47,425 bases of DNA from the NCBI GenBank assembly GCA_964552405.1, contig CAZKID010000002.1, forward strand, positions 1 through 47,425, given 5' to 3'. A program made the translations under genes and the position numbers. The notes beneath the pieces are model-generated. The model did not search any database. It was given only the letters and a program-made list of their open reading frames with translations, and was not told the origin of the DNA. The stretch's first letter is position 1, and every line of letters begins with the position of its first letter. This DNA comes from an uncultured Thermoanaerobaculia bacterium (GTDB lineage: Bacteria; Acidobacteriota; Thermoanaerobaculia; Gp7-AA8). This document shows, piece by piece, positions 12,533 through 24,500 of this stretch.

Positions 12533-13720
12533 CCGCTCGATGATCTGTGTGCGCATCGCGGGATCCTTCTCTTTTTCCGCGATGGCTTTCAGCTGCGTCG
12601 AAGCGCCTGTCACGCAGAGGGCGTCGAGCACCGCCTGACGCACTACGGCATCCGTGTCGGCGTCGTAGAACGACGCGATGGTCGCCGCATTGCCCCCTGC
12701 AAATGCGACGTTCCGAATCGCGGTTGCGCGCAGCATCGGGTTTTTCTCCGTCTTCGCGATCTCCATCAGCTTGTCGATGTTGCCGCCGATGAACAGACCT
12801 TCGATGATGCGTTTGCGGATGACAGTCGCGGTCTCTTTCGCGTAGAGGCTCGCCAACTCGGCGCGCGCACCGAGGGCTCCCAGGTTAATGACGGCCTCGC
12901 CGCGGAGGTCGACGTTTGGTTCTGTCTTCGCGAGCGCCAGCAACTGTTCACGATCACCAGTCGTCAGGAACGCCTTCATCACCGCGTGACGAACGACGAC
13001 GTCTTTCGTCGACGAGTAGACATCGGTGAGCGCCTTCTTCGATTCCTCTCCGCCTACGAACGAGAGATAGCGGACTGCGCGGCGCTGCAGCTCAGGACTA
13101 TTGGAGTCCTTCGCGGTCTTCACGACGATCGAGATCGCGCGCGGATCGCCCGACTGACTGAAGACGAAGAGGACCTTGTCCTTGACCTTCGTTCCATCTT
13201 TGCTGCGGAGAATCTCGTCGCCGATCCTCACGGCATTCTCCGGATCGTCTTCCATCATCCCGCTGAGTGCGATGATCTGCGTCGAAGGATCGTTCACGAC
13301 CGTGTAGGAAAATCCGTGGCCCGTTGCCTGCCGGATCTCGACTTCGAGCACCGCCGCATCTTCCTTCCACTTGCTCTTCGGATACCGCTGCTTCAGCTCC
13401 TCGATCGACGCGAGCGCATCGGCGCCCAAACCTCGCCTGTTGTACGAATAGGCGAGCCAGTAGAGCGCAGCATCCGCGTGCTCGAGACCTGCGTCGGCGA
13501 CGCGGCGATAGAGCGACGTTGCTGTCTGCCAGTCGTGCTCATCGAGGGCATCGTTCGCACGCGAATACAGCGACTCTTCGCGCGCCACTTTTCTCTCGTG
13601 CACGCGCTCCGATGCGATTTCGATCTCGGGCTCGGTCCATGACACCACGTTGCCGAACAGCGGCAACGTGATCAGAAGTACGGCAGCACTGCGGAACGGG
13701 ATCATGATGGGTTTCCTCAT
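12512..13720 (-). CDS. secreted HEAT/TPR-repeat protein, third gene of the ECF sigma operon
   Basis: Signal-like N-terminus 'MRKPIMIPFRSAAVLLITLPLFG'. Repeated 'D..VR.A....L' HEAT-like units. Its ATG (13718-13720) overlaps the anti-sigma stop as ATGA. Confidence 0.7.
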   Translation of the reverse strand: MRKPIMIPFRSAAVLLITLPLFGNVVSWTEPEIEIASERVHERKVAREESLYSRANDALDEHDWQTATSLYRRVADAGLEHADAALYWLAYSYNRRGLGADALASIEELKQRYPKSKWKEDAAVLEVEIRQATGHGFSYTVVNDPSTQIIALSGMMEDDPENAVRIGDEILRSKDGTKVKDKVLFVFSQSGDPRAISIVVKTAKDSNSPELQRRAVRYLSFVGGEESKKALTDVYSSTKDVVVRHAVMKAFLTTGDREQLLALAKTEPNVDLRGEAVINLGALGARAELASLYAKETATVIRKRIIEGLFIGGNIDKLMEIAKTEKNPMLRATAIRNVAFAGGNAATIASFYDADTDAVVRQAVLDALCVTGASTQLKAIAEKEKDPAMRTQIIERLKRLSE

Positions 13721-14457
13721 AGAGAATGCATTCGATTCGAGGCGAGAAGGTTCTGGCTCGGCCGCTCGCTTCGGGAATTCAGCACGCGCAGTTTGAACAG
13801 CAGGTTGCGTGCGTCGATGCGCTTCTGCAGATCCGCGAGCTCTTCGGGCGAGAGCTTGTCATCTGCATGCGAGAGCTCGACGAGCACCGGCTCGATGTCG
13901 GAAAGCACGTTCGCGATGCGCGCATCACCGCGCCGCATCGCCGTCTGACGATAGAGGCGATTCGCCGTGACCAGGTCCTCGGCGCGCGACTGCTCGCCGC
14001 TGACATCGAGATCCTTCGCGGGATCGGCATTCGCGACTTCCGTCAGGACGCGCTCGGCCGCATCGAGATGATCGCCGACGACATTGACGAGAACATTGGC
14101 TTCAGGATTGGGCTGCTTCGGAATCGCTGCAACAGCCGGCCGCTGGGGGTCGCTGGCAGGCTGTCGATGTCTCCAGATCTCGCCACCCACGAGGACGATT
14201 GCAAGCGCGGCGGCGACCGCAAGCAGCCACCGACGCGTCTTCCGCTCGCGGCGGTCGAGGCGCCAACGCAGCCGGTTCCAAACCTCATCGGCGTACGCGG
14301 GACCTCGCTGCGGCACTTCCGCCGCATCGACGAGCGCGAGCACCTGCTGCAGCGTCGCGTAGCGCGCACCACATTCACTGCACGCGGCGAGATGCTCGGC
14401 CGCATCCGCATCGCGATAGTGATGCGCAATCAGTTGTTCATCGTTCAGGTGTTGCAT
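13717..14457 (-). CDS. anti-sigma factor (zf-HC2-like N-terminus, single TM)
   Basis: 'HLAACSECGARYATL' is a putative zinc-finger motif, and there is a TM segment 'WLLAVAAALAIVLVGG'. It lies directly downstream of, and overlaps, the ECF sigma gene. Confidence 0.75.
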   Translation of the reverse strand: MQHLNDEQLIAHHYRDADAAEHLAACSECGARYATLQQVLALVDAAEVPQRGPAYADEVWNRLRWRLDRRERKTRRWLLAVAAALAIVLVGGEIWRHRQPASDPQRPAVAAIPKQPNPEANVLVNVVGDHLDAAERVLTEVANADPAKDLDVSGEQSRAEDLVTANRLYRQTAMRRGDARIANVLSDIEPVLVELSHADDKLSPEELADLQKRIDARNLLFKLRVLNSRSERPSQNLLASNRMHSL

Positions 14458-15014
14458 TGGTTCGGCCTCACGAGTGGCTCCAGGGAATCGCGCAGCTTTC
14501 GCACGGCGCGAAAAATCGTATGTTTCGCAGCGTTGACCTGGATCCCGAGTGTCTTGCCGATCTCTTCGACCGGCATTCCTTCGAAATGACGAAGAACGAA
14601 CGCGGTGCGCTCGTTGTCACTGAGCAATTTCATGGCAGCCGCGACCTGCCGCTGCACTTCGGCACTCAACACGACACGATCCGGCTCGGGCGCGCCGGAT
14701 GCCGCGTCCAGCAACTCATCGCTCGTCGTGTACTGCTTGTCGTGACGCTGGCGTGCGCGCAACAAGTCGAGCGAGCAGTTCACCGCGATGCGATGCAGCC
14801 ACGTCGAGAAGTTCGCACGCTCTTCAAAGCCGTCGATCTGACGATACGCGCGAAGAAACGTCTCCTGCACCACATCGTCGGCATCATGTTCGTTTCCAGT
14901 CATACGCCAGGCGACACGGAAGATGGAGCGGCTATGACGCTCGACGAGCAGCCGGAAGGCATCCGCGTCGCCGTCACGGGCACGGCTGACGGCTGCGACG
15001 TCGGTCATCTCCAT
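14445..15014 (-). CDS. ECF-type RNA polymerase sigma-70 factor
   Basis: 189 aa. Region 2 'DADDVVQETFLRAYRQIDGF' and region 4 'ERTAFVLRHFEGMPVEEIGKTLGIQVNAAKHTIFRAVRKLR'. Confidence 0.9.
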   Translation of the reverse strand: MEMTDVAAVSRARDGDADAFRLLVERHSRSIFRVAWRMTGNEHDADDVVQETFLRAYRQIDGFEERANFSTWLHRIAVNCSLDLLRARQRHDKQYTTSDELLDAASGAPEPDRVVLSAEVQRQVAAAMKLLSDNERTAFVLRHFEGMPVEEIGKTLGIQVNAAKHTIFRAVRKLRDSLEPLVRPNQCNT

Positions 15015-15061
15015 GTCGCTACCTTAGACTCTCGAGCCAGCTGGTGGTTAGCCCGATTAGA

Positions 15062-15147
15062 CAGCAGGCAGCAGGCAGCAGACAGCAGAGGGAACCGGCA
15101 GGCTCAACGGTTTACACATCCTGCTACCTGCTGCCTGCTGTCTGCTG
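15062..15147. repeat. about 27-bp imperfect inverted repeat built from tandem 7-nt units (GCAGGCA-type / CCTGCTG-type) around a 32-nt spacer
   Basis: Left arm 15062-15088 'cagcaggcagcaggcagcagacagcag' pairs with right arm 15121-15147 'ctgctacctgctgcctgctgtctgctg', with one 2-nt mismatch and one G-T. The spacer holds a smaller AACCG/CGGTT hairpin (15093-15112). Confidence 0.7.
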
Positions 15148-15175
15148 CCTGAAGGGTTACACTGTTCATCGCACC

Positions 15176-15200
15176 GAAACCTAACCTTCGCTGCTTCGTA
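15176..15200 (+). promoter_or_regulatory. candidate ECF-type promoter GAAAC-N16-CGTA upstream of the DUF4097-like gene
   Basis: GAAAC at 15176-15180, a 16-nt spacer, then CGTA at 15197-15200, 24 nt before ATG 15224. This matches the general ECF -35 'GAAC' / -10 'CGT' architecture. Confidence 0.4.
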
Positions 15201-15223
15201 ACGTCATTAGACGGGACACGACA

Positions 15224-16066
15224 ATGAAACGTGGTGCGATCGCAATCCTCTTCGCGATCGCGTCCGTGAGTGCGCTCTCTGCGCCTCCGGTCGCGACATC
15301 GACTACGAGCGCCTCCACCACGAGCGCGGCACCTGCACCCGGGCCGCCACCAACGCGATCCCTCATCGTCACCTCGCAGGACTTCTCCAGCCTTCTCGCC
15401 GACGACTGCGATCACTTCCACACGCGCAACACGACCTCGTTCCCCGCCGCCTCGCGCTCGCAGGAACAGCAGGACATCGCACTGCAAGGCATCGATGTGC
15501 TGAAGATTCACAGCAGCGAGCAAGGTGGGATCCTCGTTCGCGGCTGGGACAAGCCGACTGCGCGGCTCACGGTCTGCAAAGAAGCTGTTGGCTTCACGCA
15601 GCAGCAGGCGCAACGGACGCTGGGTGCAATCAACATCTCGTCGCGCAACGGCGACGTCAGCGCCACAGGTCCAACGAACGATGAGACGCAAGCCTGGTGG
15701 GTCCACATGATCCTTCGCGTTCCTCGCAACGCGGGACTCGAAGTGACCTCGGCCAACGGCGGCATCGCGATCCGCAACATGAACGGCAGGATCACCGCGC
15801 GCGCGAAAAACGGCGGTATCTCCATCGAGAAGACCTCAGGGCAGATCGACGCGTCGACGGTGAACGGTCCGATCTCTCTCAAGCTGGGGCAGGACCAGAG
15901 CTCGTCGGTCGAAGCGCGAATTGCCGATGCGGGCGAGATCTTCTGCCGTATCTGCCGCGCGGAAAACTACAGCGCGAATCACAAGCTCGTCCGGATTGGC
16001 AACGCCGCTCCTTCCATCAAACTGACGACGACGAGCGCTCCCATCGTGATCGATCAAGTACGATGA
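15224..16066 (+). CDS. secreted DUF4097-like (putative adhesin / beta-helix) protein
   Basis: Signal peptide 'MKRGAIAILFAIASVSALSA'. Repeated 'SANGGIAIRN / AKNGGISIEK / TVNGPISLKL' strands typical of DUF4097-type beta-helices. Confidence 0.6.
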   Translation: MKRGAIAILFAIASVSALSAPPVATSTTSASTTSAAPAPGPPPTRSLIVTSQDFSSLLADDCDHFHTRNTTSFPAASRSQEQQDIALQGIDVLKIHSSEQGGILVRGWDKPTARLTVCKEAVGFTQQQAQRTLGAINISSRNGDVSATGPTNDETQAWWVHMILRVPRNAGLEVTSANGGIAIRNMNGRITARAKNGGISIEKTSGQIDASTVNGPISLKLGQDQSSSVEARIADAGEIFCRICRAENYSANHKLVRIGNAAPSIKLTTTSAPIVIDQVR

Positions 16067-16077
16067 TGCGCTGACGC

Positions 16078-17019
16078 ATGCATCGGCTGATCGAGCTCAT
16101 TCTTCATTACGGCGTTCCTCTCGTCTGTCTGAACGTCTTTCTCGAACAGATCGGCGCGCCGATTCCGGCGGTTCCTACGCTGATCATCGCGGGAGCACTC
16201 GCGCGCAATGGGCAGTTGTCGTCGTCGCACGTGCTCACCGGCGCGCTCCTCTCATCGGTCGTCGCCGACTGGATCTGGTTCCTCCTCGGCCGCCGCTACG
16301 GCTACCGTATTCTTCGCACGCTGTGCCGTATCTCGCTCTCGCCGGATACCTGCGTGCGAGAGACCGAGGCGAACTTCGAAAAGTGGGGGATGCGGTCGCT
16401 GCTCTTCGCGAAGTTCGTTCCCGGATTCTCGACGGTCGCGCCTCCTCTCGCGGGTGCAACCAAGGCGAGCACGCTCGAGTTTCTCGTGTTCGATGCAATC
16501 GGCGCCTTCCTGTGGGCCGGTTCAGCCGTGGTCGCGGGCCGCGCATTTCATCATCAGATCGGCACCCTGCTGCAGCGTCTGGAAGATCTTGGCTGGTGGT
16601 CGGTGACGATCGTCGTGTCGATCGTCGCGCTGTTCATCCTCATCAAGTGGTATCAGCGGCTTCACTTCTACCAGCAGCTCCGCGTCGCGCGCATCAGCGT
16701 GAATGAAGTGAAAGACATGATTGATCGCGGAGAGTCGCCGGTCGTCATGGACGTGCGTACACGCGCGTCGAGGAAGCAGGATCTGCGGCGCATTCCGACG
16801 GCGATCGTCGCGGCGACACCGGAAGAAGTCGCGCAACAATTGGAGAGCATTCCGGTCGGGACGCCGATCATCTTGTACTGCACGTGACCAAACGAGGCCT
16901 CAGCCGCCCGTGTGGCGCGCATGCTGATGGATCGGGGATACAAGAAAGTACGGCCTCTCGCGGGAGGATTCGACGCGTGGGTCGATGCCGGTTTTCCAGT
17001 CGAGGACTTGAGTGAATGA
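16078..17019 (+). CDS. DedA/VTT membrane domain fused to a C-terminal rhodanese domain, interrupted by an in-frame TGA at 16885-16887 (candidate selenocysteine codon, or else a nonsense mutation/pseudogene)
   Basis: Track ORF 16078..16887 ends '...GTPIILYCT*'. The same frame continues 'PNEASAARVARMLMDRGYKKVRPLAGGFDAWVDAGFPVEDLSE*' to TGA 17017-17019, completing the rhodanese fold. That stop overlaps the next gene's ATG as ATGA. Confidence 0.6.
16901..16926 (+). other. candidate SECIS-like hairpin 13 nt downstream of the in-frame TGA
   Basis: Lower stem CAGC (16901-04) / GCUG (16923-26). Upper stem CGCC (16905-08) / GGCG (16914-17). Apical loop CGUGU. 3' internal loop CGCAU. Folded by eye only. 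Confidence 0.3.
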
Positions 17020-17831
17020 CGGAGTCGACCTACATCCACGGAACCGCGCCCGAGGAACAGCGCCGGCTCTCGCTGCTGAATGATGTGCTGCTGAATCCCG
17101 CATCGTTGCGCGAGATCGCACTTCACGGCGACGAGCGCGTCATCGACTTCGGCTCCGGCCTCGGACAGTTCTCGCGGACGATGGCCCGCGCGCTGCCGCA
17201 AGGACGTGTCGTCGGTGTCGAACGCAGCGACGAGCAGCTCGCACTCGCACGAAGACTTGCGGCAGAGGAAGGCGAGGCCGATCTAGTGGACTTTCGCCAG
17301 GGCGATGTGCTCGACGCGGACCTCGAGTGGGGAACGTACGACGTAGCACACGCGCGCTTCGTGCTCGAACATGTTCCGGATCCTCTGCGCGTAGTGAAGA
17401 GCATGGTGCGCGCAGTTCGTCCCGGAGGCCGCATCATCCTCGCGGACGATGATCACGATGTCCTTCGGCTCTGGCCCGAACCGCCGGGCATCGCGGAATT
17501 GTGGCGAGCCTACATGCGCAGCTATGACCGCATCGGCAACGATCCGTTCATCGGACGGCGGCTCGTGCAATTGCTGCACGACGCGGGGGCGCAGCCAGTG
17601 CGCTGCACCGTGATCTTCTTCGGCGGCTGTGCGGGGATGGAGATCTTTCCGACGCTCGCGGCGAACATGATTGGTGTGGTCCGTAGCGCGCGCGACACGA
17701 TTCTCTCGATGGGACTCTTCGATGAGAAGGCCTTCGACGCCGTGCTCCGCGAGTACGAAGCGTGGTCGAAACGACCGGACGCGGCCATCTGGTTCACGAT
17801 GCCCTGGGCGGAAGGGAGAGCGGGCTCGTGA
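17016..17831 (+). CDS. class I SAM-dependent methyltransferase
   Basis: 271 aa with motif I 'VIDFGSGLGQF' and post-I/II 'DVAHARFVLEHVPDP...PGGRIIL'. It is not EgtD-like (no Methyltransf_33-type N-terminus). Confidence 0.85.
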   Translation: MTESTYIHGTAPEEQRRLSLLNDVLLNPASLREIALHGDERVIDFGSGLGQFSRTMARALPQGRVVGVERSDEQLALARRLAAEEGEADLVDFRQGDVLDADLEWGTYDVAHARFVLEHVPDPLRVVKSMVRAVRPGGRIILADDDHDVLRLWPEPPGIAELWRAYMRSYDRIGNDPFIGRRLVQLLHDAGAQPVRCTVIFFGGCAGMEIFPTLAANMIGVVRSARDTILSMGLFDEKAFDAVLREYEAWSKRPDAAIWFTMPWAEGRAGS

Positions 17832-17928
17832 GGTGGAGGACAGGCGCCCCCGCCTGTCCACCGAGCCGACAGGCGAGGGCGCCCGTCGCCCCACGGAGTG
17901 AGCACAAAAGCTGCAGTCCGACTCATCC

Positions 17929-18729
17929 GTGCCTGAAAAACTTTCCGAAGTCACGATCGCCTTCTATCGGCATGCGTTGAAGATTCTGGCGGACGCGGGC
18001 GTTCCGGCACTCGTGGGAGGCGCCTATGCTTTCGCCCGCTACACGGGAATCGAACGACATACGAAAGATTTCGACGTCTTCATTCGGGGCGGCGATTTCG
18101 AACGGGCAGCGGACGCGTTTCGCGCCCATGGCTATTCATCGGAACTGACTTTTCCCCATTGGCTCGGCAAAGCATTTCATGGCGACGATTTCGTCGACCT
18201 CATCTTCAGCGCAGGAAACGGCGTGGCACAGGTTGACGATCTCTGGTTCAAGCACGCGGTCGATGAAGTCGTCTTCAATGTTCCATGCAAACTGATCCCG
18301 CCGGAAGAGATGATCTGGTCGAAGGGTCTCATCATGGAGCGCGAGCGCTTCGATGGCGCCGACGTTCTGCACGTGATGCGCGCCGTGGGAGCAACGCTCG
18401 ACTGGCGCCGCCTGATCGATCGCTACGGCCGCCACTGGCGCGCACTCTTCGCGCACGTCGTCCTGTTCGGTTACGTCTATCCGTCCGAGCGATCGAGAAT
18501 CCCGTCCTGGGTGATCGACGAGCTCGGCGCGCGTCTTCGCGCGGAAACCACACACGGCGATTCGGATGAGAGGATCTGTTTCGGCACGATCATTTCACGT
18601 CAGCAGTACTTGATGGACGTCGACGAGTGGGGCTATCTCGATGGCCGGCTGAGCCCGATCGGCAATTTGTCCGAGGAAGAGATCGCTCACTGGACGGCCG
18701 GAATCGCACAGGACGGAAGCCCGAAATGA
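17929..18729 (+). CDS. Pol-beta-superfamily nucleotidyltransferase-like protein
   Basis: GTG start. 'GGAYAFARYTGIERHTKDFDVFI' fits the G[GS]...D.D nucleotidyltransferase signature. The C-terminal helical region matches no family I can name. Confidence 0.6.
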   Translation: MPEKLSEVTIAFYRHALKILADAGVPALVGGAYAFARYTGIERHTKDFDVFIRGGDFERAADAFRAHGYSSELTFPHWLGKAFHGDDFVDLIFSAGNGVAQVDDLWFKHAVDEVVFNVPCKLIPPEEMIWSKGLIMERERFDGADVLHVMRAVGATLDWRRLIDRYGRHWRALFAHVVLFGYVYPSERSRIPSWVIDELGARLRAETTHGDSDERICFGTIISRQQYLMDVDEWGYLDGRLSPIGNLSEEEIAHWTAGIAQDGSPK

Positions 18730-19484
18730 ACGAACGAACGACGCTACGCATTGCTGCCGTTGCGGACATTCACGTCAAGAAGACTTCGCAAGGTGCCTTT
18801 CAGAATCTCTTCACCAGTGCGACCGAGGCGGCAGACGTGATGCTGCTGTGCGGCGATCTCACCGACTACGGCTCGGTCGATGAGGCAAAAGTGCTCGCGA
18901 AGGAAATCACGAGCTCGTTGCGCATTCCGGCAATCGGCGTCCTCGGCAATCATGATTACGAGTCGGACAGCGAGGAAGAAATCCTCCGCATCCTTACCGA
19001 CGCCGGGGTGACGATGCTGGACGGCGACTCGTACGAGTTGCACGGCGTCGGCTTCGCCGGAGTCAAAGGCTTCGGGGGCGGTTTCGGCCGCCGCGCACTC
19101 GGTGCGTGGGGCGAGAAGATGATCAAGAGCTTCGTGCACGAAGCGATCGAAGAGTCGTTGAAGCTCGAAGCCGCGCTGGCGCGTCTGCGCACCCCGCAGA
19201 AGATCGGCGTGTTGCATTACTCGCCGGTTCAGGCAACCGTCGAAGGGGAGCCTCTGGAAATCGTCGCGTTTCTCGGCTCATCGCGCCTCGAGGAGCCGCT
19301 TGATCGTTATCGAGTCACCGCCGTGTTTCACGGGCACGCGCACCGCGGATCGCCGGAAGGCCGCACGAAAGCGAACGCGCCGGTGTACAACGTCGCAATG
19401 CCGGTGCTGGCAACACACTTTCCGGAGCGCCCGCCGTTTCGTGTGATCGAAGTCCCGATCGGCGAGCCGGCATTCGCGGGATAG
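18726..19484 (+). CDS. metallophosphoesterase (calcineurin-like)
   Basis: Start 'MNERTTLRIAAVADIHV' (ATG 18726, ATGA overlap with the upstream stop). Motifs D-x-H ('ADIH'), GD ('CGDLTD'), GNHD ('GNHDYE') and GH-x-H ('HGHAH'). Confidence 0.8.
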   Translation: MNERTTLRIAAVADIHVKKTSQGAFQNLFTSATEAADVMLLCGDLTDYGSVDEAKVLAKEITSSLRIPAIGVLGNHDYESDSEEEILRILTDAGVTMLDGDSYELHGVGFAGVKGFGGGFGRRALGAWGEKMIKSFVHEAIEESLKLEAALARLRTPQKIGVLHYSPVQATVEGEPLEIVAFLGSSRLEEPLDRYRVTAVFHGHAHRGSPEGRTKANAPVYNVAMPVLATHFPERPPFRVIEVPIGEPAFAG

Positions 19485-19494
19485 AATTCGCGCC

Positions 19495-20829
19495 GTGCGA
19501 CACGCGGCATTTCCGCGCGGCATCACTCGCGAAGACCTCGTCCGTTGGTATCGCGCAGGCCGCAAGAATTCGAAGGCGATCTTCTCGATTCCTGTCGAGA
19601 GCGCGTATTACGAGCGTCCCATCGCCCTTCGCAATCCAATCGTCTTCTACGAAGGCCATCTTCCCGCGTTCGCGGTGAACACGCTCATCAAGCTCGCGCT
19701 TCAACACGGCGGAATCGATGAGCACTTCGAGGTGCTCTTCGCGCGCGGCATCGATCCCGACAGCGTCGATGCCGTGAAGAATCCAACCGATGTCTGGCCG
19801 CGCCGCAGCGCCGTGCTCGAGTACGGAAGTCAAGCCGATGCGATGATCGAAGACACGCTCGGTTACGCGACGATCGAAGACGGCTCCGTCCCGCAACTGC
19901 GCGGCGCGGAGGCGGCGATCGCGATCCTCGAGCATGAGCAGATGCATCAGGAAACTCTGCTCTATATGTTTCACAACCTTCCCTATTCGAAGAAAGTGAA
20001 GCAGCCGGCACTCAATGCCTCAACGCCTCAACGCATAACGAATCGCGAAACCGGTATGGTCCGCATCCCGCGCGGCATCGCAACTCTCGGTGGCGATGAA
20101 GGTGTGTTCGGCTGGGACAACGAGTTTCCCTCGCTCCAGGTCGACGTTCCGGAATTTCTCGTCGACCGCCACAACGTGACGAACGGCGAGTTCATGCAGT
20201 TCGTCCAAGCGGGCGGCTATCGCGACCCTTCCTTCTGGAGCGAAGCGAACTGGAGTTGGGTGACGACGGAGAAGGTTGAACATCCCCACTTCTGGCTGAA
20301 GAACGAGCGCGGCTGGTTCTGGCGCGGCATGTTCGCGCTGATTCCATTGCCGGAAGACACTCCCGTCTACGTCACACTCGCGGAGGCGGAAGCGTATGCG
20401 CGCTGGCGCAACGCGCGCGTGATGTCGGAGGCCGAGTACCACCGCGCTGCGTTCGGAACACCATCCGGGGAAGAACGTCCGTTTCCGTGGGGCGATGAGC
20501 CTGCCGATCCATCGCGCGGCAATTTCGGATTCGCAAACTGGGATCCTGTTCCGGTTGGTTCGTATCCGGCGGGCGCGAGCGCGTGGGGCGTTCATGATCT
20601 CGCGGGCAACGGCTGGGAGTGGACGTCGACACCGTTCGCCGGGTTCCCAGGCTTTCAGCCGATGGCCTCGTATCCCGTCTACTCCAGCGACTTCTTCGAT
20701 GGTGAGCACTACGTGCTGAAGGGCGCCTCACCAGCGACTTCGCCGGAGATGATCCGCCGTAGCTTCCGCAATTGGTTTCGCGGCACGTATCCGTATCTGT
20801 ACGCGAAGTTCCGCTGCGTGCAGTCATAG
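19495..20829 (+). CDS. EgtB/OvoA-like sulfoxide synthase (DinB-like iron domain plus FGE-sulfatase domain)
   Basis: GTG start 10 nt after the previous stop. 'FYEGHLPAF' and 'LEHEQMHQETL' look like DinB-type His ligands. 'GWDNEFP', 'VTNGEFMQFV' and 'GNGWEWTSTPF' are FGE-domain motifs. There is no fused methyltransferase domain. Confidence 0.75.
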   Translation: MRHAAFPRGITREDLVRWYRAGRKNSKAIFSIPVESAYYERPIALRNPIVFYEGHLPAFAVNTLIKLALQHGGIDEHFEVLFARGIDPDSVDAVKNPTDVWPRRSAVLEYGSQADAMIEDTLGYATIEDGSVPQLRGAEAAIAILEHEQMHQETLLYMFHNLPYSKKVKQPALNASTPQRITNRETGMVRIPRGIATLGGDEGVFGWDNEFPSLQVDVPEFLVDRHNVTNGEFMQFVQAGGYRDPSFWSEANWSWVTTEKVEHPHFWLKNERGWFWRGMFALIPLPEDTPVYVTLAEAEAYARWRNARVMSEAEYHRAAFGTPSGEERPFPWGDEPADPSRGNFGFANWDPVPVGSYPAGASAWGVHDLAGNGWEWTSTPFAGFPGFQPMASYPVYSSDFFDGEHYVLKGASPATSPEMIRRSFRNWFRGTYPYLYAKFRCVQS

Positions 20830-20849
20830 TTCGTGCATTGCGAATACGC

Positions 20850-21479
20850 ATGGAAATGAAGACCTACCAGGCAAAGCAATTCAATCTCAGCGGGCTCACC
20901 GGCATCTCGGACAAGACGCTCGAGATGCATTTCAAACTCTATGAAGGCTACGTCACGAACACGAACACATTGACGGAGCGCATTGCGGCAATTCTCGCCG
21001 ACGGCAAAGTCGATCAGGAGGAAATGCCCGCCTACTCGGAGCTCACGCGCCGCCTTGGTTTCGAATACAACGGCATGGTTCTGCACGAGTACTACTTCGG
21101 CAACTTGCGCAACGGAGGCGGCGGAGATCCGGATCGTAAGTCCGAGTTCATGCAGTCGGTATCGCGCAGCTTCCCTTCATATGAGATCTGGAAGGCCGAC
21201 TTCGTCAGCGTAGGCAAGATGCGCGGCGTTGGCTGGGCAATCTGCTATCTCGATCCCGCGAACGGCCACGTCTCGAATCACTGGATCACGATGCACGAGA
21301 CGGGCAACATCGCGGGCTTCGTTCCGCTGCTCGTCATGGATGTGTGGGAGCACGCGTTCCTGCTCGACTACAAACCGTCAGACAGACCAAAGTACATCGA
21401 TGCATTCATGGCGAATGTCGACTGGCGAGTGGTGGAGAGCCGATTGAGCGCGGTGCAGGTGACTGCAACGGTACGTTAG
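20850..21479 (+). CDS. atypical Fe/Mn-superoxide-dismutase-family protein
   Basis: Start 'MEMKTYQAKQF' (ATG 20850 or 20856). The C-terminal 'DVWEHAFLLDY' matches the SOD D-x-W-E-H-A-Y-Y metal motif. The N-terminal 'H..HH' motif is degenerate ('EMHFKLYEGYV'). Confidence 0.7.
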   Translation: MEMKTYQAKQFNLSGLTGISDKTLEMHFKLYEGYVTNTNTLTERIAAILADGKVDQEEMPAYSELTRRLGFEYNGMVLHEYYFGNLRNGGGGDPDRKSEFMQSVSRSFPSYEIWKADFVSVGKMRGVGWAICYLDPANGHVSNHWITMHETGNIAGFVPLLVMDVWEHAFLLDYKPSDRPKYIDAFMANVDWRVVESRLSAVQVTATVR

Positions 21480-21489
21480 GGGTTTCGCT

Positions 21490-21559
21490 GTCATCCTGAG
21501 CGTGAGCGAAGGAGCCCGAGGTCGAGGGGTCCTTCGCCTTCTTCGCGGCTCAGGATGAC
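21490..21559. repeat. REP-like palindromic element, family A (GTCATCCTGAGC ... GCTCAGGATGAC)
   Basis: Outer arms 21490-21501 and 21548-21559 are perfect complements. Inner arms are 'gcgaaggagccc' and 'gggtccttcgc'. It sits between convergent genes, and its right arm supplies the last codons and stop of the 1158-aa gene. Confidence 0.75.
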
Positions 21560-24500
21560 GCCAGTTCCACCGTTCCCTTGCGCTCGAGCTTGCCCCAGCC
21601 CGCTCGAATTCCGGAGATGGCGGTCTTCAGTGATTTGAGCAGCACGGCATACATCAATTGCCTGTAGAGAAACCGCTGCCAGAAGAGCCATACGAGCATC
21701 TTCGGATCTTCGCGATCGAGTTTGAAGGCCACGCTCGCCCCTATGAGCTCGATGACGAAGAAGAACGCGTACATGAACGCGACGACATAAAGCTGCGACG
21801 CGGCCACCGGGAACGGCTGCCAGTCCTGCGTGAGATCGCGTCGCAGCATCGCATCGATCGTCTTGCCGAGCGCCCAGAGGATCTGCAAGTCGACGAGAGG
21901 TGACAGTGCCTGATATGCGATCTGGAACAACCAGAGCGACGGGAGCATCAGCCGTCCAAACCATCCGTACCGTCCGATCGCACGGCGATGCTTCCAAAGA
22001 CACTGCAGCGTGCCGAACGCCCAGCGGAAGCGCTGCTTGAACAACGCGCGGAACGAATCCGGCGCCTCCGTGTAGCCGACCGCCTCGGTTTCCGTATCGA
22101 CACGCCAGCCGATCCTGCGGATTTTCCACGTCAGATCCATATCCTCGGCCATCGTGTCCGTCGTATAGCCACCCGCTTGCAGAATCGCTTCGCGCCGCCA
22201 GGCGCCGACCGCACCAGGCACGACGGAAACCGAATTGAGGAACGAGTACGCGCGGCGATCGAGATTCTGGCTCGTGACGTATTCGATCGCCTGCCAGTAC
22301 GTCAGCGGGTTGATGCGGTTCCCAACCTTCACATTGCCGGCAACCGTTCCCACGAGCGGATCCGCGAAGCGGCGGGTCAGCTTGCTGATCGTCTCCTTCG
22401 CGAAGATCGTGTCGGCATCGAGCGCGATGATGATCTCGCCCGGCGCCATCGCGATGCCTCGATTGAGAGCTGACGCCTTCCCGCCATTCTCCTGACGAAT
22501 CAACCGCACTTTCGGATTGCCACCGAACTCGCGCTCGACGGCAGCCGACGTGTCATCGACTGAGCCATCGTCGACGACGATGATCTCCAGCTCGCCGGAG
22601 TAATCGTTCGCGAGCACCGCGTCGAGCGTTCGCCCGATGACCTTCCCTTCGTTGTACGCCGCAATCACCACACTGACCGGCGGCCGATAGGTTTCGTCGA
22701 ATGGCGCGTGATGCCGCTCTTTGTACTTCGCCACCAGCGCCATCACCGTGATGAACACGACGCGCAAGGTGCCAAGGATGATCGCCGAGACGAACGCGAT
22801 GCTGAGGAAGAGCTCGAAGAGATACATCATCTCGAAGACGACGCGATCGCTGGCGAGCATCAGCGTGTCGGAGTTCGTCACCTTCGGGTTCACGTCATCA
22901 CGCGTTGCATTGACGAGCGCGGAAACCGTGACGAATTTCTTGCCGCGCTTCTGCAGCTCATTAACGAGCAGCGGGATCAGCTTCACGGTCTCGCTACGGT
23001 CGCCGCCCCCGTCGTGCAGCAGGATGCAGCTTCCTTTTTCCGTTTCGATCTGCTGCAGGACCGTCTGCAGCATCTCCTGCGCAGTGCGCTTGCGGATCGT
23101 GCCGTCTTCCAGCCGCTCCTCGGTCTTCCAGTCCTGCGGGTCGAGGAACTCGAGGACCGTGATGTAGTTCATCTCCGAGGCGGTGACGATCGGCATCACT
23201 TCTTCCCTGGCAGTTGGCTCCGCATCCGCGTTATAGGGGGGGCGGAAAAGCAGTGTCGAGCGATGGAGGATGCTCTGAAACACTCGCTGCGTCGCATTGA
23301 TCTCGTACTCGGCGCGCATCGAGGACACCGCTCCGATGTTCGGATGCGTGTAGCTGTGATTGCCGATCTCGTGGCCTTCGTTCCAGATGCGGCGCACGAG
23401 ACCCGGGTAGCGATCGGCGTTCTGTCCGATGAGAAAGAAGGTCGCTTTCACGTTCAACGCCTTCAGTTCGTCGAGCATCTGCGCGGTGTACGGCGAGGCA
23501 GGACCATCGTCGATCGTCAGCGCGATGAGGTCGGGATTGAACCCGCTCCGCTGGATGACATACGAGGTTGGAAATTGCTTGTAGACCTCGTCGAGAAAGA
23601 GACCGGTTTGCGGATCGATCTCCATGTCTCGCTGTGCCTTCTTGGGGGTCGCCGCAACGCGAGCGATTTCTCCGTCGCCGACGAAGTCGACGTCGTACGG
23701 AAATTCGATCTCGCGCAGGGTCGCGCGATTTGGTTTGAGGCGGAGACGATCGCGCCGGATGAATTTGAAGATTGACGGGTCGCATGAACCGAGAACCCAA
23801 ACCGCGACACCACGTGGTTTGTACGGCTCGGCAATCATCCACTCGTTGGCCGCCGTGATCGCATCGAGCATCCAGACTTCGTGCTCGATTCCATCATCGT
23901 CGACGTAGAAGAACGTCGGGTTCAGCGCGACATCGTCGAAGTCGACGATCTTGTCCGGCGTTTCACCCGGATGAAACCTCTTTGCTTCCACGAGCGCAGC
24001 TTGATACGTCAGCGGCTCCGCCCACTGGCGATTCTCCGCCCAGTCGTATGCGTAGTTCGCGATTCCGATCACGAGCTTGTCTCGCGAAACGTCGCGTCTG
24101 GCGCGCTCGATCACGGTCCTGAACCAATTGATCGACGAGATCGGTCCCGGCTTGCTCGTCGAGCTGTGTTCGTCGTAGGCCATGACCACCACGAAGTCGC
24201 ACACTTGCGACGCGGCCTTCCAGTCCAACGGCTTCGGCGCCTCGAGATCGGCACTCACAAGGAGTTGCGCCGACGCGAACATCACCTTGATCCGCTTCAA
24301 GAAAGAAATCAGGCGCGGATAGTCTTCGGGATAGAGATTCTCGAAGTCGACGTTGATGCCCTGGAATCGATTCGCTTGAATCCATGTGCGCAACTGCAGG
24401 ATGACCTTCTCCTGCAGCACCGGATCGGTTAGAAGGATATGCGCGCGTTTCGGATCGAAATCCGACTGCTGCGCATTGCTGAAGATCGGAACGATGTTGA

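What the first reader, a model, noticed from the sequence alone, without database searches (positions are those of the whole stretch)
17929..21479. EgtB/OvoA-like sulfoxide synthase without EgtD, embedded in a nucleotidyltransferase - metallophosphoesterase - SOD-like operon
Four co-directional genes are packed very tightly. The junctions are an ATGA overlap at 18726, a 10-nt gap at 19485-19494 and a 20-nt gap at 20830-20849.

The 444-aa protein has DinB-type His motifs ('FYEGHLPAF', 'EHEQMHQE') and an FGE-sulfatase domain ('GNGWEWT'). That is the architecture of EgtB (ergothioneine) or of the OvoA catalytic core. However:
- Ergothioneine clusters normally pair EgtB with the histidine trimethylase EgtD, and no Methyltransf_33-type gene is visible anywhere in these 47 kb.
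- The protein lacks OvoA's fused methyltransferase domain.

Its partners are instead a Pol-beta-type nucleotidyltransferase, a calcineurin-like phosphoesterase and a divergent Fe/Mn-SOD-family protein whose N-terminal His pair is degenerate. Just upstream, on the same strand, lie a stand-alone class I methyltransferase and the TGA-containing rhodanese.

Inference: this may be a variant thio- or seleno-histidine-type, or otherwise redox-related, C-S/C-Se bond-forming module with an unknown substrate, rather than canonical ergothioneine synthesis.
Basis: partly seen in the sequence, partly recalled or inferred. Interest (0 to 1): 0.6.

Follow-up and report, generated by a model that had tools for sequence, protein, structure and literature searches.

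The report
Ergothioneine synthase in a conserved stress cluster
The 444-residue enzyme is most likely an ordinary, if poorly annotated, type of ergothioneine (antioxidant) synthase whose partner methyltransferase lies elsewhere in the genome, and it sits next to the cell's only superoxide dismutase and a widespread enzyme pair of unknown function.

Summary
Four co-directional genes lie at the stated coordinates with the stated junctions.

- The 444-aa protein best matches solved type IV EgtB, the OvoA-branch ergothioneine sulfoxide synthase.
- It carries the full EgtB-IV active-site pattern. This includes the Asn-Trp pair found in hercynine-using enzymes.
- The genome holds one egtD, on another contig, and no other enzyme of this family.
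- Among 61 related genomes the two genes nearly always occur together.
- In four genomes of sister families, orthologues with the same active-site pattern lie directly beside egtD.

The four-gene arrangement is real. It is kept in 33 of 37 assessable relatives' loci, but it is a composite.
- The nucleotidyltransferase and phosphoesterase form a separate two-gene module.
- That module stays adjacent in many phyla, in three orientations, without egtB or the dismutase nearby.
- The 'SOD-like' gene keeps all four metal ligands and is the genome's only Fe/Mn SOD homologue.
- A sigma-54-type promoter precedes the cluster in 38 of 48 relatives' upstream regions. It is degenerate in this window.

Verdict: a new member of a known enzyme kind. 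The function of the attached enzyme pair is still open.

The parts
19495..20829 (+). Type IV-like EgtB (OvoA-branch nonheme-iron sulfoxide synthase), 444 aa: DinB-like N-terminal part plus FGE-like domain. Key residues: iron His55/His147/His151, catalytic Tyr393, Tyr396, and Asn426-Trp427-Phe428.
17929..18729 (+). Pol-beta-superfamily nucleotidyltransferase, 266 aa, with a MenT1/ANT(2'')-like core (residues about 7-182) and a helical C-terminal extension. It is the first gene of the cluster.
   Evidence: Weak PF14907 match. G-G...D-x-D motif invariant in 20 and in 32 sequences. Model pLDDT 85.8. Fold matches: MenT1 Z 15.1, ANT(2'') Z 11.9, TM1012 Z 10.7.
18726..19484 (+). Calcineurin-like metallophosphoesterase, 252 aa, with all metal-binding motifs. 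Its fold is nearest to phosphodiesterases. Its start overlaps the nucleotidyltransferase stop (ATGA).
   Evidence: PF00149. Invariant D14, H16, D44, N75, H76, H164, H202, H204, H206. Model pLDDT 92.9. Foldseek matches: MPPED2, PptH, Rv0805, GpdQ, LpxH. Junction read.
20850..21479 (+). Fe/Mn-family superoxide dismutase, 209 aa, with all four metal ligands (His27, His79, Asp164, His168). It is the only Sod_Fe_C homologue found in the genome.
17900..17915 (+). Sigma-54-type promoter-like element GAGCACAAAAGCTGCA. The -24 position reads AG instead of the GG kept in most relatives. It lies 14 nt before the GTG of the nucleotidyltransferase.
   Evidence: GGCA-N7-TGC is found within 140 nt upstream of the gene in 38 of the 48 relatives' regions long enough to test. 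Background rate measured.
17835..17887 (.). G+C-rich inverted repeats in the 98-nt gap between the methyltransferase and the nucleotidyltransferase, with no T-run after them.
   Evidence: No terminator-like site on the + strand.
17016..17831 (+). Stand-alone class I SAM methyltransferase, 271 aa. It is not EgtD-like. Its ATG overlaps the stop of the rhodanese selenoprotein.
   Evidence: Present in only 14 of the 49 closest loci.
16078..17019 (+). DedA/VTT membrane domain fused to a rhodanese. An in-frame TGA at 16885-16887 is read as selenocysteine in the motif LYCT-U-PNEAS.
   Evidence: The in-frame stop is kept in 21 of 21 distinct orthologues.
15224..16066 (+). Secreted DUF4097 ('toastrack') protein, 280 aa.
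15176..15200 (+). ECF-type promoter-like motif GAAACCTAAC-N11-CGTA, 24 nt before the DUF4097 start. It is unique in the genome.
   Evidence: It tracks the DUF4097 gene, not the four-gene cluster.
14445..15014 (-). ECF sigma factor (regions 2 and 4), divergent from the + strand gene string.
13717..14457 (-). Putative anti-sigma factor with an N-terminal H-x3-C-x2-C motif (HLAACSEC). It has no Pfam match.
   Evidence: The motif was read by eye.

Best explanation
**What the 444-aa protein is.** It is a type IV-like EgtB, an OvoA-branch nonheme-iron sulfoxide synthase. It most likely joins cysteine to C2 of hercynine (N-alpha-trimethylhistidine) using O2. The hercynine would come from the genome's unlinked EgtD, and a C-S lyase would then release ergothioneine.

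**What the cluster is.** In this order of uncultured Acidobacteriota (records labelled Thermoanaerobaculia), egtB lies between two things:
- a two-gene nucleotidyltransferase-phosphoesterase module, and
- the organism's only Fe/Mn superoxide dismutase.

The four genes probably form one transcription unit, which is an antioxidant operon at least in its last two genes.

**The enzyme pair.** The nucleotidyltransferase-phosphoesterase pair is an independent module of unknown function that is conserved across phyla. My best guess is a writer/eraser pair for a nucleotidyl (phosphodiester) modification of an RNA 3' end or a small molecule.

**What is shown and what is inferred.**
- Shown: family, active-site residues, gene order and its conservation, egtD elsewhere in the genome, and phyletic co-occurrence.
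- Inferred: substrates, product, co-transcription, and any role of the enzyme pair.
For: **The enzyme.**
- Best solved relatives are EgtB-IV: 8vih at 236 bits (E 8e-69) and 8vig at 220 bits. These are well above MthEgtB (173), OvoA (157), OvsA (136), SenA (98) and type II EgtB (95).
- Residue-by-residue alignments place His55/His147/His151 on the iron triad. They place Tyr393 on the catalytic Tyr and Asn426-Trp427 on the Asn-Trp of MthEgtB. OvoA has Tyr-Ala at that position.
- The resulting composite RNYH--DDHMHYYNWFY fits the published EgtB-IV rule RxYH--DxHxHYxNWFx, not the OvoA rule (passages of PMC11030361).
- All 35 orthologous rows fit the rule. This includes the four that lie beside egtD.

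**The pathway partner.**
- egtD is at G000:C211:1-801, 330 bits. The window's gene is the only NHISS in the genome.
- Of 61 related genomes, 43 have both an NHISS homologue and egtD, 12 have neither, 2 have the NHISS only and 4 have egtD only.
- egtB is adjacent to egtD and co-directional with it in G046, G050, G054 and G058.

**The cluster.**
- Of the 49 closest loci, 37 have at least 3.5 kb downstream of the nucleotidyltransferase. Of those, 34 hold egtB and 33 hold the whole quartet.
- The junctions are an overlap of 4 nt and gaps of 10 and 20 nt.
- GGCA-N7-TGC lies upstream of the first gene in 38 of the 48 relatives' upstream regions long enough to test.

**The dismutase.**
- Its four ligands are invariant in 20 sequences.
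- It is the single Sod_Fe_C match in the genome.
- Its best solved relative is a superoxide dismutase, 1coj (113 bits).
Against: - No activity was measured.
- The protein scores below the curated cut-offs of every NCBIfam model in this family: ovoA_Nterm 280 against 400, EgtB 240 against 360, SenA 228 against 420. No model for EgtB-IV is in that library.
- I could not place it in a tree with characterised EgtB-IV, OvoA or AshA sequences, so common descent with the characterised EgtB-IV is not shown.
- My mapping of residues onto the 17-position published motif is my own, made from pairwise alignments.
- No EgtE above cut-off was found (best 69 bits against 400), so the lyase step is unassigned.
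- egtD runs off its contig end, and the genome is 94% complete in 699 contigs.
- egtD could in principle serve another sulfur-transfer route such as EanB, which I did not search for.
- Co-transcription is not shown.
- In this window the -24 element of the sigma-54-type motif reads AG, not GG.
- The conservation of the quartet may be inherited gene order within one order. Related genomes are not independent.
Confidence: 0.78

Rival explanations
1. The enzyme forms a C-S or C-Se bond on a substrate other than hercynine, such as histidine, a peptide or a selenosugar donor. The nucleotidyltransferase, phosphoesterase and dismutase-like proteins would then be dedicated pathway partners.
For: - No egtD lies in the window.
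- All curated family models score below cut-off.
- The four-gene order is conserved.
- A selenoprotein lies upstream.
- A relative in the same family (G008) carries a true SenA paralogue at 505 bits, so selenium chemistry exists in the lineage.
- New NHISS activities, such as AshA making 2-thiohistidine, were described in 2026 (PMC13674229, sections read).
Against: - The active-site pattern is identical to that of the egtD-adjacent orthologues.
- The Asn-Trp pair is the hercynine type. AshA has His-Phe-Tyr there and OvoA has Tyr-Ala.
- The SenA/OvsA pattern (xNEH--HR...) is not met.
- egtD is in the genome and co-occurs phyletically.
- At least seven genomes have an NHISS homologue and egtD but no nucleotidyltransferase: G042, G043, G046, G050, G051, G054 and G058.
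- The enzyme pair occurs in many phyla without egtB nearby.
Confidence: 0.07
2. The enzyme is an ergothioneine EgtB. The adjacency to the nucleotidyltransferase-phosphoesterase pair and to the dismutase gene is only inherited gene order in one lineage, with no shared regulation or function.
For: - The link between egtB and the enzyme pair is seen only in one order: f1-f3 and the closest 49 loci.
- There is no independent recurrence. None of the 22 assessable loci of the second group, and none of all 31, holds egtB or the dismutase gene.
- In the quick tree, 18 of 19 rows with that context fall in one subclade (SH-aLRT 90). That fits a single origin.
Against: - The junctions are very tight, a 4-nt overlap and 10- and 20-nt gaps.
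- The order is kept across many genera while the genes upstream of the quartet come and go. The methyltransferase is in 14 of 49 loci, DedA-rhodanese in 16 and DUF4097 in 25.
- A conserved promoter-like element precedes the first gene only.
- An antioxidant synthase beside the only dismutase makes functional sense.
Confidence: 0.12
3. The 209-aa protein is not a dismutase but a diverged family member with another role, and the cluster is not about oxidative stress.
For: - It scores far below the NCBIfam dismutase cut-offs (94 against 300, 67 against 348).
- Its N-terminal domain is just under the Pfam cut-off (26.7 against 27).
- The second His of the usual N-terminal His cluster is missing (alignment).
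Against: - All four metal ligands and Tyr34 are invariant in 20 sequences.
- The best solved relative is a superoxide dismutase with a similar N-terminal variant.
- No other Fe/Mn dismutase homologue was found in the genome.
Confidence: 0.1

Closest known systems
Type IV EgtB (EgtB-IV), the OvoA-like ergothioneine sulfoxide synthase. Solved structures are 8VIH and 8VIG. The papers are Liao and Seebeck 2017 and Ireland et al. 2024, which I saw only as cited references.
   Same: - Two-domain DinB-like plus FGE-like architecture with no methyltransferase domain.
- Best sequence match among solved structures.
- Same composite active-site pattern RxYH--DxHxHYxNWFx.
- Depends on a separate EgtD.
   Different: - It comes from uncultured Acidobacteriota.
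- It is unlinked to egtD and embedded between a nucleotidyltransferase-phosphoesterase pair and a dismutase gene.
- Common descent with the characterised enzymes was not tested in a tree.
- The FGE-like domain reads KGASPAT where the relatives have GGSW/GGAW.
OvoA, the 5-histidylcysteine sulfoxide synthase (structure 8KHQ).
   Same: - Same branch of the family. The ovoA_Nterm model is the best NCBIfam match (280 bits).
- Same Arg/Tyr/Asp pattern at the positions assigned to the thiol donor.
   Different: - No C-terminal methyltransferase domain.
- Asn-Trp where OvoA has Tyr-Ala.
- Below the model's cut-off of 400 bits.
Canonical actinobacterial and type II egtB-egtD clusters (TIGR03440 EgtB).
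   Same: The same pathway logic of EgtD plus a sulfoxide synthase. In Abbott et al. 2026, egtD is by far the commonest neighbour of this enzyme family, at 69.9% (Table 1).
   Different: - Here egtD is on another contig. In relatives it lies next to a histidyl-tRNA synthetase gene and an aromatic amino-acid lyase gene.
- The TIGR03440 score is 240 against a cut-off of 360.
- No EgtC was found; EgtA was not searched for.
AshA, the 2-thiohistidine-forming NHISS of ATP-grasp clusters (Abbott et al. 2026, PMC13674229).
   Same: OvoA-branch enzyme with C2 regioselectivity.
   Different: - AshA uses histidine and has His526-Phe527-Tyr528 at the substrate amino-group site.
- AshA keeps a vestigial methyltransferase domain.
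- AshA is clustered with an ATP-grasp enzyme. None of these holds here.
MenT1 (Rv0078A) tRNA nucleotidyltransferase toxin, and the small-molecule adenylyltransferases ANT(2'')-Ia and LnuA. These are fold relatives of the 266-aa protein.
   Same: - Pol-beta nucleotidyltransferase core. MenT1 gives Z 15.1, rmsd 2.4 A over 170 residues; ANT(2'') gives Z 11.9.
- The G-G...D-x-D catalytic motif is invariant.
   Different: - Sequence identity is only 12-15%.
- There is an extra C-terminal region of about 80 residues.
- The partner is a phosphoesterase, not a MenA-type antitoxin.
- The protein is 55-60% identical across phyla and sits at a fixed chromosomal place, unlike typical toxin-antitoxin genes.
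- There is no PADLOC match.
- A shared fold does not show function.
Fe superoxide dismutase 1COJ. I recall this as the Aquifex pyrophilus enzyme; the tool gives only 'superoxide dismutase'.
   Same: - Best solved match at 113 bits over residues 14-200.
- A similar variant of the N-terminal His region.
- All four ligands are aligned.
   Different: It is far below the NCBIfam equivalog cut-offs, so it is a diverged subgroup.

Membership tests
EgtB-IV (type IV ergothioneine sulfoxide synthase) | DinB-like N-terminal domain plus FGE-like C-terminal domain, with no fused methyltransferase | tested here: met
   - FGE-sulfatase at residues 185-442.
- Full-length alignment to EgtB-IV over residues 9-442.
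- The protein ends at residue 444.
EgtB-IV (type IV ergothioneine sulfoxide synthase) | Three-His iron triad and catalytic Tyr | tested here: met
   - His55, His147, His151 and Tyr393 align to the MthEgtB, OvoA and EgtB-IV positions.
- They are invariant in 36 sequences.
EgtB-IV (type IV ergothioneine sulfoxide synthase) | Composite motif RxYH--DxHxHYxNWFx (Kayrouz et al. 2024) | tested here: met
   - The window reads RNYH--DDHMHYYNWFY, and all 35 orthologous rows fit the rule.
- The rule was read in passages of PMC11030361.
- The mapping of positions is my own.
EgtB-IV (type IV ergothioneine sulfoxide synthase) | An EgtD (hercynine supply) in the same genome | tested here: met
   - C211:1-801, 330 bits.
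- Co-occurrence in 43 of 61 relatives.
- Adjacent in G046, G050, G054 and G058.
EgtB-IV (type IV ergothioneine sulfoxide synthase) | Groups with characterised EgtB-IV in a phylogeny | not tested
   - No characterised EgtB-IV, OvoA or AshA sequence was available as a stored protein.
- Only pairwise scores exist, plus a quick tree with local outgroups.
EgtB-IV (type IV ergothioneine sulfoxide synthase) | Catalyses hercynine plus cysteine to the C2 sulfoxide | not testable with these tools
   This needs an enzyme assay.
OvoA (5-histidylcysteine sulfoxide synthase) | Fused C-terminal methyltransferase, the (Y/F)-A motif at the histidine site, and a score over the TIGR04344 cut-off | tested here: not met
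   - 444 aa with no methyltransferase domain.
- Asn-Trp instead of Tyr-Ala.
- 280 bits against a cut-off of 400.
EgtB type I/II (TIGR03440) | Score over the curated cut-off, and motif xSDH..RRHQH.. or xSHHYYRRHQH.. | tested here: not met
   - 240 bits against a cut-off of 360.
- The motif has R-N-Y-H and D-D instead.
SenA/OvsA selenoxide synthases | Score over the NF041186 cut-off, motif xNEH--HRH.., and senB/senC neighbours | tested here: not met
   - 228 bits against a cut-off of 420.
- The motif differs.
- senB and senC were not searched for.
Fe/Mn superoxide dismutase | Both domains and the four metal ligands (His, His, Asp, His) | tested here: met
   - Sod_Fe_C at 76 bits; Sod_Fe_N at 26.7 against a cut-off of 27.
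- His27, His79, Asp164 and His168 are invariant.
- Ligand identities rest on alignment to solved dismutases and on recalled E. coli numbering.
- The NCBIfam equivalog cut-offs are not reached.
MenT/MNT-type minimal nucleotidyltransferases | Pol-beta fold with the G-[GS]...D-x-[DE] catalytic motif | tested here: met
   - Fold matches.
- Motif GGAYAF...DFD is invariant.
- Toxin or tRNA-modifying activity was not tested, so this is a statement about fold and superfamily only.
Calcineurin-like metallophosphoesterases | The conserved metal-binding motifs D-x-H, G-D, G-N-H-[DE], H and G-H-x-H | tested here: met
   - PF00149 at 50 bits.
- Invariant D14, H16, G43-D44, N75-H76, H164 and H202-G203-H204-A205-H206.
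Sigma-54-dependent transcription unit | GG at -24 and GC at -12 with canonical spacing, plus an activator protein | tested here: inconclusive
   - 38 of 48 relatives' upstream regions carry GGCA-N7-TGC.
- The window reads AGCA.
- Twenty activator homologues are in the genome but none is in the window.
- There is no transcript evidence.

The most novel reading that the evidence does not exclude
The nucleotidyltransferase and phosphoesterase may act directly on the ergothioneine system in this lineage. They could reversibly nucleotidylate ergothioneine, hercynine or a pathway intermediate, giving a nucleotide-thiol conjugate. Alternatively they could AMPylate and de-AMPylate EgtB or the dismutase as a redox switch. 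On this reading the four genes form a new, extended ergothioneine pathway and not simply a shared stress operon.
Probability: 0.07. Interest if true: 0.8.

Novelty: new member of a known kind. Interest (0 to 1): 0.4.

Why it matters
- **Annotation gap.** A very large clade of soil and rock acidobacterial enzymes goes unnamed. More than 8000 database proteins score E <= 1e-20, and the top 120 are at least 60% identical. Sources name them only as generic 'SUMF1/EgtB/PvdO family' or 'formylglycine-generating enzyme'. No curated model reaches its cut-off for them. Recognising them as type IV-like EgtB would add ergothioneine synthesis to a major uncultured soil group.
- **Antioxidant wiring.** An antioxidant-synthesis gene placed immediately before the only superoxide dismutase gene is a neat case of antioxidant functions wired together.
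- **An open module.** The by-product may matter more than the original finding. A nucleotidyltransferase-phosphoesterase pair, 55-65% identical across at least seven phyla, is always adjacent and often sits behind a sigma-54-type promoter. It has no known function and has cultured carriers (Noviherbaspirillum) in which it could be studied.

Tried and rejected
- **Complex prediction, nucleotidyltransferase with phosphoesterase (paired 32-row alignments).** No verdict: score 0.00 against a mark of 0.32. This is not evidence either way.
- **The look-up of sequencing runs.** No RNA holder is listed. There are four DNA runs of one rock-metagenome study, so co-transcription could not be examined and read laying was not used.
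- **ECF sigma control of the cluster.**
  - A conserved ECF-type motif (GAAACCTAAC-N11-CGTA) lies before the DUF4097 gene and is unique in the genome.
  - It tracks that gene: 22 of 25 loci with it, 0 of 24 close loci without it, 0 of 31 others.
  - The cluster persists without it, so I dropped ECF control of egtB as a claim.
- **Phyletic link between the nucleotidyltransferase and egtD outside the Acidobacteriota.**
  - Four of five carriers from other phyla have egtD.
  - In the family of Noviherbaspirillum, egtD is in 69 of 81 genomes and the nucleotidyltransferase in 9 of 81, and all 9 have egtD.
  - With that base rate the test cannot discriminate.
- **Conserved neighbours of the enzyme pair in other lineages.** They are heterogeneous: LigD primase-polymerase, AlkZ-related, SRPBCC, RidA, SIMPL, Cupin_5, alpha/beta hydrolase and CHAT-TPR. 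No consistent lead emerged.
- **Defence-system reading of the pair.**
  - There is no PADLOC match for the nucleotidyltransferase.
  - The phosphoesterase gives only a generic domain match (PDC-S10, 46 bits).
- **Sigma-70 promoter and terminator scan of 14900-21800.** No promoter-like sites and no + strand terminator.
- **EgtE and EgtC searches.** Nothing scored over cut-off.
- **Methyltransferase 17016-17831 as a substitute for EgtD or the OvoA C-terminal domain.**
  - Only generic class I matches appear. The best are ArsM and UbiG at about 50 bits, and ovoA_Cterm scores 27 against a cut-off of 170.
  - It is present in only 14 of 49 loci.
  - It is coupled by an ATGA overlap to the rhodanese gene, not to egtB.
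- **Tree.** The careful search did not finish within the time limit. Only the quick tree with SH-aLRT support is reported.
- **Literature.**
  - Searches for 'EgtB-IV', 'type IV EgtB' with ergothioneine, ergothioneine with Acidobacteria and EgtB, and nucleotidyltransferase with metallophosphoesterase, sigma-54 and operon found no description of this cluster in the held library.
  - The EgtB-IV structure paper (PMC11560578) is not held.

Full report
**1. Observation**

The four genes exist as described:
- A 266-aa nucleotidyltransferase-like protein at 17929-18729.
- A 252-aa metallophosphoesterase from the ATG at 18726 to 19484.
- A 444-aa EgtB/OvoA-like protein at 19495-20829.
- A 209-aa Fe/Mn-SOD-family protein at 20850-21479.

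The junctions, read from the sequence, are an ATGA overlap at 18726-18729, a 10-nt gap at 19485-19494 and a 20-nt gap at 20830-20849.

Pfam and NCBIfam confirm the domain calls. No EgtD-type methyltransferase lies on the window's contig.

**2. What the 444-aa protein is**

It scores below the curated cut-offs of all three NCBIfam models of the family:

| Model | Score (bits) | Cut-off |
|---|---|---|
| ovoA_Nterm | 280 | 400 |
| EgtB TIGR03440 | 240 | 360 |
| SenA | 228 | 420 |

That explains why sources name its relatives only generically.

Against solved structures it matches best the two 'sulfoxide synthase EgtB-IV' entries:

| Entry | Enzyme | Score (bits) |
|---|---|---|
| 8vih | EgtB-IV | 236 (E 8e-69) |
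| 8vig | EgtB-IV | 220 |
| 4x8b | MthEgtB | 173, C-terminal two thirds only |
| 8khq | OvoA | 157 |
| 8ux5 | OvsA | 136 |
| 8ryz, 8k5i | SenA | 98 |
| 6o6l and others | type II EgtB | 95 |

Kayrouz et al. 2024 (PMC11030361, passages read) reduce each enzyme of this family to 17 active-site positions. [quoted passage not shown] Their rules are RxYH--DxHxHYxNWFx for EgtB-IV and RxYH--DxHxHYF(Y/F)AFx for OvoA.

I mapped those positions through the residue-by-residue alignments.
- In the MthEgtB chain the aligned residues are Y378, Y381, N415, W416, D417 and R421. That is one more than the literature numbering I recall (Y377, Y380, N414, W415, D416, R420), so the mapping is consistent.
- The window's protein then reads RNYH--DDHMHYYNWFY.
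- The iron ligands are His55, His147 and His151. The catalytic Tyr is Tyr393.
- Asn426-Trp427 sits where OvoA has Tyr-Ala.
- AshA, the 2026 enzyme that makes 2-thiohistidine, has His-Phe-Tyr at this site. It also keeps a vestigial methyltransferase domain (PMC13674229, section read).

The residue pattern therefore points to hercynine plus cysteine, which is ergothioneine chemistry.

**3. Genomic support**

- The window's own genome (699 contigs, 94.4% complete) has one strong EgtD at C211:1-801, at 330 bits. It is cut by the contig end and faces a divergent Ser/Thr kinase gene.
- The window's gene is the only NHISS in the genome. The two other matches are FGE domains inside much larger frames.
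- Among 61 related genomes, 45 have an NHISS homologue at E <= 1e-30 and 47 have EgtD. Both are present in 43 and both are missing in 12. Two have only the NHISS (G015, 73% complete, and G023). Four have only EgtD (G009, G029, G047, G055).
- These tallies include two genomes flagged as unpublished (G025, G042). Related genomes are not independent, so this is a pattern and not a statistical test.
- In sister families the orthologue lies immediately beside egtD on the same strand. This holds in G058 (57% identity), G050 and G054 (55%) and G046 (51%).
- Those four rows carry the same composite pattern as the 18 rows that sit beside the nucleotidyltransferase-phosphoesterase pair. All 35 orthologous rows fit the EgtB-IV rule.
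- The egtD-adjacent orthologues also show the same sub-threshold NCBIfam profile as the window's protein.
- In a quick maximum-likelihood tree (SH-aLRT only; the careful search did not finish), the 35 orthologues are separated from a local SenA and a canonical EgtB by a starred branch. In the same tree, 18 of the 19 rows with the nucleotidyltransferase context fall in one subclade with support 90.
- No EgtE or EgtC reaches its cut-off, so the C-S lyase step is unassigned.
- In relatives, egtD lies next to a histidyl-tRNA synthetase gene and an aromatic amino-acid lyase gene.

**4. The four-gene arrangement**

A scan of one genome per species, using an alignment of the nucleotidyltransferase, returned 80 loci out of at least 562 relatives.

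*The 49 closest loci* (62-88% identity) all come from records labelled Thermoanaerobaculia, Acidobacteriota or Acidobacteria, or from Candidatus Gilichinskyi.
- 47 have the phosphoesterase directly downstream.
- 37 have at least 3.5 kb of sequence downstream. Of these, 34 hold egtB and 33 hold the whole quartet including the dismutase gene.
- This set overlaps the genomes sampled. There, 18 of 34 orthologue loci show nucleotidyltransferase-phosphoesterase-egtB, and many of those contigs are short.

*The other 31 loci* (55-61% identity) come from further Acidobacteriota and from records labelled Methylomirabilota/Rokuibacteriota, Chloroflexota, Myxococcota, Noviherbaspirillum, Steroidobacteraceae, Gemmatales and Verrucomicrobiae.
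- 30 keep the two genes adjacent.
- They do so in three arrangements: 3 with the nucleotidyltransferase first, 9 with the phosphoesterase first and 18 divergent.
- None has egtB or the dismutase gene within the 6 kb fetched on each side.

*Within the window's class*, the nucleotidyltransferase is found only in the window's order: f1 31 of 36, f2 1 of 1, f3 2 of 2, and 0 of 22 in the other families. Seven genomes with both an NHISS homologue and egtD lack it.

The quartet is therefore a composite. An independent two-gene module acquired egtB and the dismutase gene downstream of it, or was placed in front of them, in one lineage. The ergothioneine genes do not need the module.

**5. The partner proteins**

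*Nucleotidyltransferase.*
- The G-G...D-x-D motif is invariant, and mean column identity is 65-73%.
- The model has pLDDT 85.8.
- Its fold is closest to MenT1 (Z 15.1, rmsd 2.4 A, 170 residues). Next come ANT(2'')-Ia (Z 11.9), TM1012 (10.7), MenT3 (10.0) and LnuA (9.3).
- A protein language-model look-up lists clusters carrying DUF2204, NTP_transf_5 and Aminoglyc_resit.

*Phosphoesterase.*
- It keeps every metal-binding motif.
- It has no sequence match among solved structures.
- The model has pLDDT 92.9.
- Its fold is closest to phosphodiesterases: MPPED2, PptH, Rv0805, GpdQ and LpxH, with TM-scores of 0.5-0.68.

*Reading of the pair.* An enzyme that makes a nucleotidyl phosphodiester sits next to one that cleaves phosphodiesters, and the two are kept together in any orientation. 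That suggests a writer/eraser pair. The target (an RNA 3' end, a small molecule or a protein) is unknown. This is inference only.

*Dismutase.*
- Its best solved match is 1coj at 113 bits.
- It keeps His27, His79, Asp164 and His168 in all 20 sequences.
- It is the genome's single Sod_Fe_C match.
- It is probably a working dismutase of a diverged subgroup.

**6. Regulation**

*ECF-type motif.*
- A motif (GAAACCTAAC-N11-CGTA, 15176-15200) lies 24 nt before the DUF4097 gene. It is next to a divergent ECF sigma and anti-sigma pair.
- It is unique in the genome and conserved in relatives.
- It follows the DUF4097 gene, not the quartet: 22 of 25 loci with that gene, 0 of 24 close loci without it, and 0 of 31 others.

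*Sigma-54-type element.*
- GGCA-N7-TGC, with canonical GG-to-GC spacing, lies within 140 nt upstream of the nucleotidyltransferase gene.
- 49 regions were tested: the window plus the 48 of the 49 loci that had at least 140 nt upstream.
- 39 of the 49 match. The window's own row is among the 10 that miss, so 39 of the 48 relatives' regions would match by subtraction; I report 38 of 48 elsewhere as the conservative figure and the exact count should be read.
- Allowing AGCA raises the count to 42 of 49.
- Background in all fetched loci is 158 matches in 1.64 Mb, both strands, true sites included.
- The window itself reads GAGCACAAAAGCTGCA at 17900-17915. Its -24 GG is therefore not intact, and the same-genus locus L049 has no match either.
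- In the second group of loci the element is found upstream of the nucleotidyltransferase in 11 of 31 and upstream of the phosphoesterase in 6. Examples are the four Noviherbaspirillum loci.
- The genome encodes 20 sigma-54 activator homologues, none of them in the window.

I read this as follows. The module is often sigma-54-controlled, and in most relatives the quartet starts at such a promoter. In this genus transcription may come from upstream instead. None of this is backed by transcript data, because no RNA run is listed.

**7. Comparison with the literature**

- Abbott et al. 2026 tabulated the gene families found within 5 kb of all NHISS genes in NCBI (Table 1, read). EgtD leads at 69.9%.
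- That table lists no nucleotidyltransferase and no superoxide dismutase. It has two 'phosphatase' rows (COG4295 at 1.6%, HAD_PNKP-C at 1.0%). I cannot tell whether COG4295 is this phosphoesterase.
- I did not open that paper's supplements, which may bear on this point.
- Four full-text searches found no description of this cluster.

**8. Verdict**

- The enzyme is a new member of a known kind: a type IV-like EgtB for ergothioneine (confidence about 0.78).
- The conserved link of egtB with the only dismutase is a modestly interesting antioxidant operon.
- The nucleotidyltransferase-phosphoesterase module is the truly open item.

Noticed in passing
window 16078-17019 (+): - This is a DedA/VTT membrane domain fused to a rhodanese. 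It has an in-frame TGA at 16885-16887 inside the motif LYCT-U-PNEAS.
- Reading the TGA as selenocysteine restores a full rhodanese domain. NF041203 'rhodanese-related (seleno)protein' rises from 26 to 84.7 bits, against a cut-off of 115.
- The in-frame stop is kept in 21 of 21 distinct orthologues.
- The true stop (17017-19) overlaps the ATG of the next gene.
- No SECIS element was looked for.
   Followed up: partly
window 15059-15151: A 30-nt imperfect inverted repeat made of CAGCAGG-type units. Its arms are 15059-15088 and 15121-15150, 87% complementary. It flanks a 32-nt core in the divergent region between the ECF sigma gene and the DUF4097 gene. Its function is unknown; it may be an operator or a repeat element.
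   Followed up: no
G000:C211:1-801 (L001), and L129, L131, L133: - The genome's egtD runs off its contig end.
- In relatives (G006, G032, and less tightly G002) it is followed by a histidyl-tRNA synthetase gene. After that comes a 560-aa aromatic amino-acid lyase gene (PF00221, 544 bits).
- The lyase could be a histidine ammonia-lyase or an ergothionase-like enzyme. I did not distinguish between them.
   Followed up: partly
L040:7986-9263 (genome G008, same family as the window): A second NHISS paralogue there scores 505 bits on the SenA model (cut-off 420). Some members of this acidobacterial family therefore probably also make selenoneine. The window's genome has no such gene among its contigs.
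   Followed up: no
L098-L128 (for example L102, Noviherbaspirillum massiliense JC206): - A second type of nucleotidyltransferase-phosphoesterase module (55-61% identical) is spread over many phyla.
- Some acidobacterial genomes carry both types: G015, G017, G022 and G031 each have two matches.
- In Methylomirabilota-labelled loci its neighbours include a LigD primase-polymerase gene and an AlkZ-related gene.
   Followed up: partly
window 21550-25026 (-): A 1158-aa multidomain protein, convergent with the cluster. It combines glycoside hydrolase 18, polysaccharide deacetylase and family 2 glycosyltransferase domains. It is conserved next to the cluster in many relatives.
   Followed up: no
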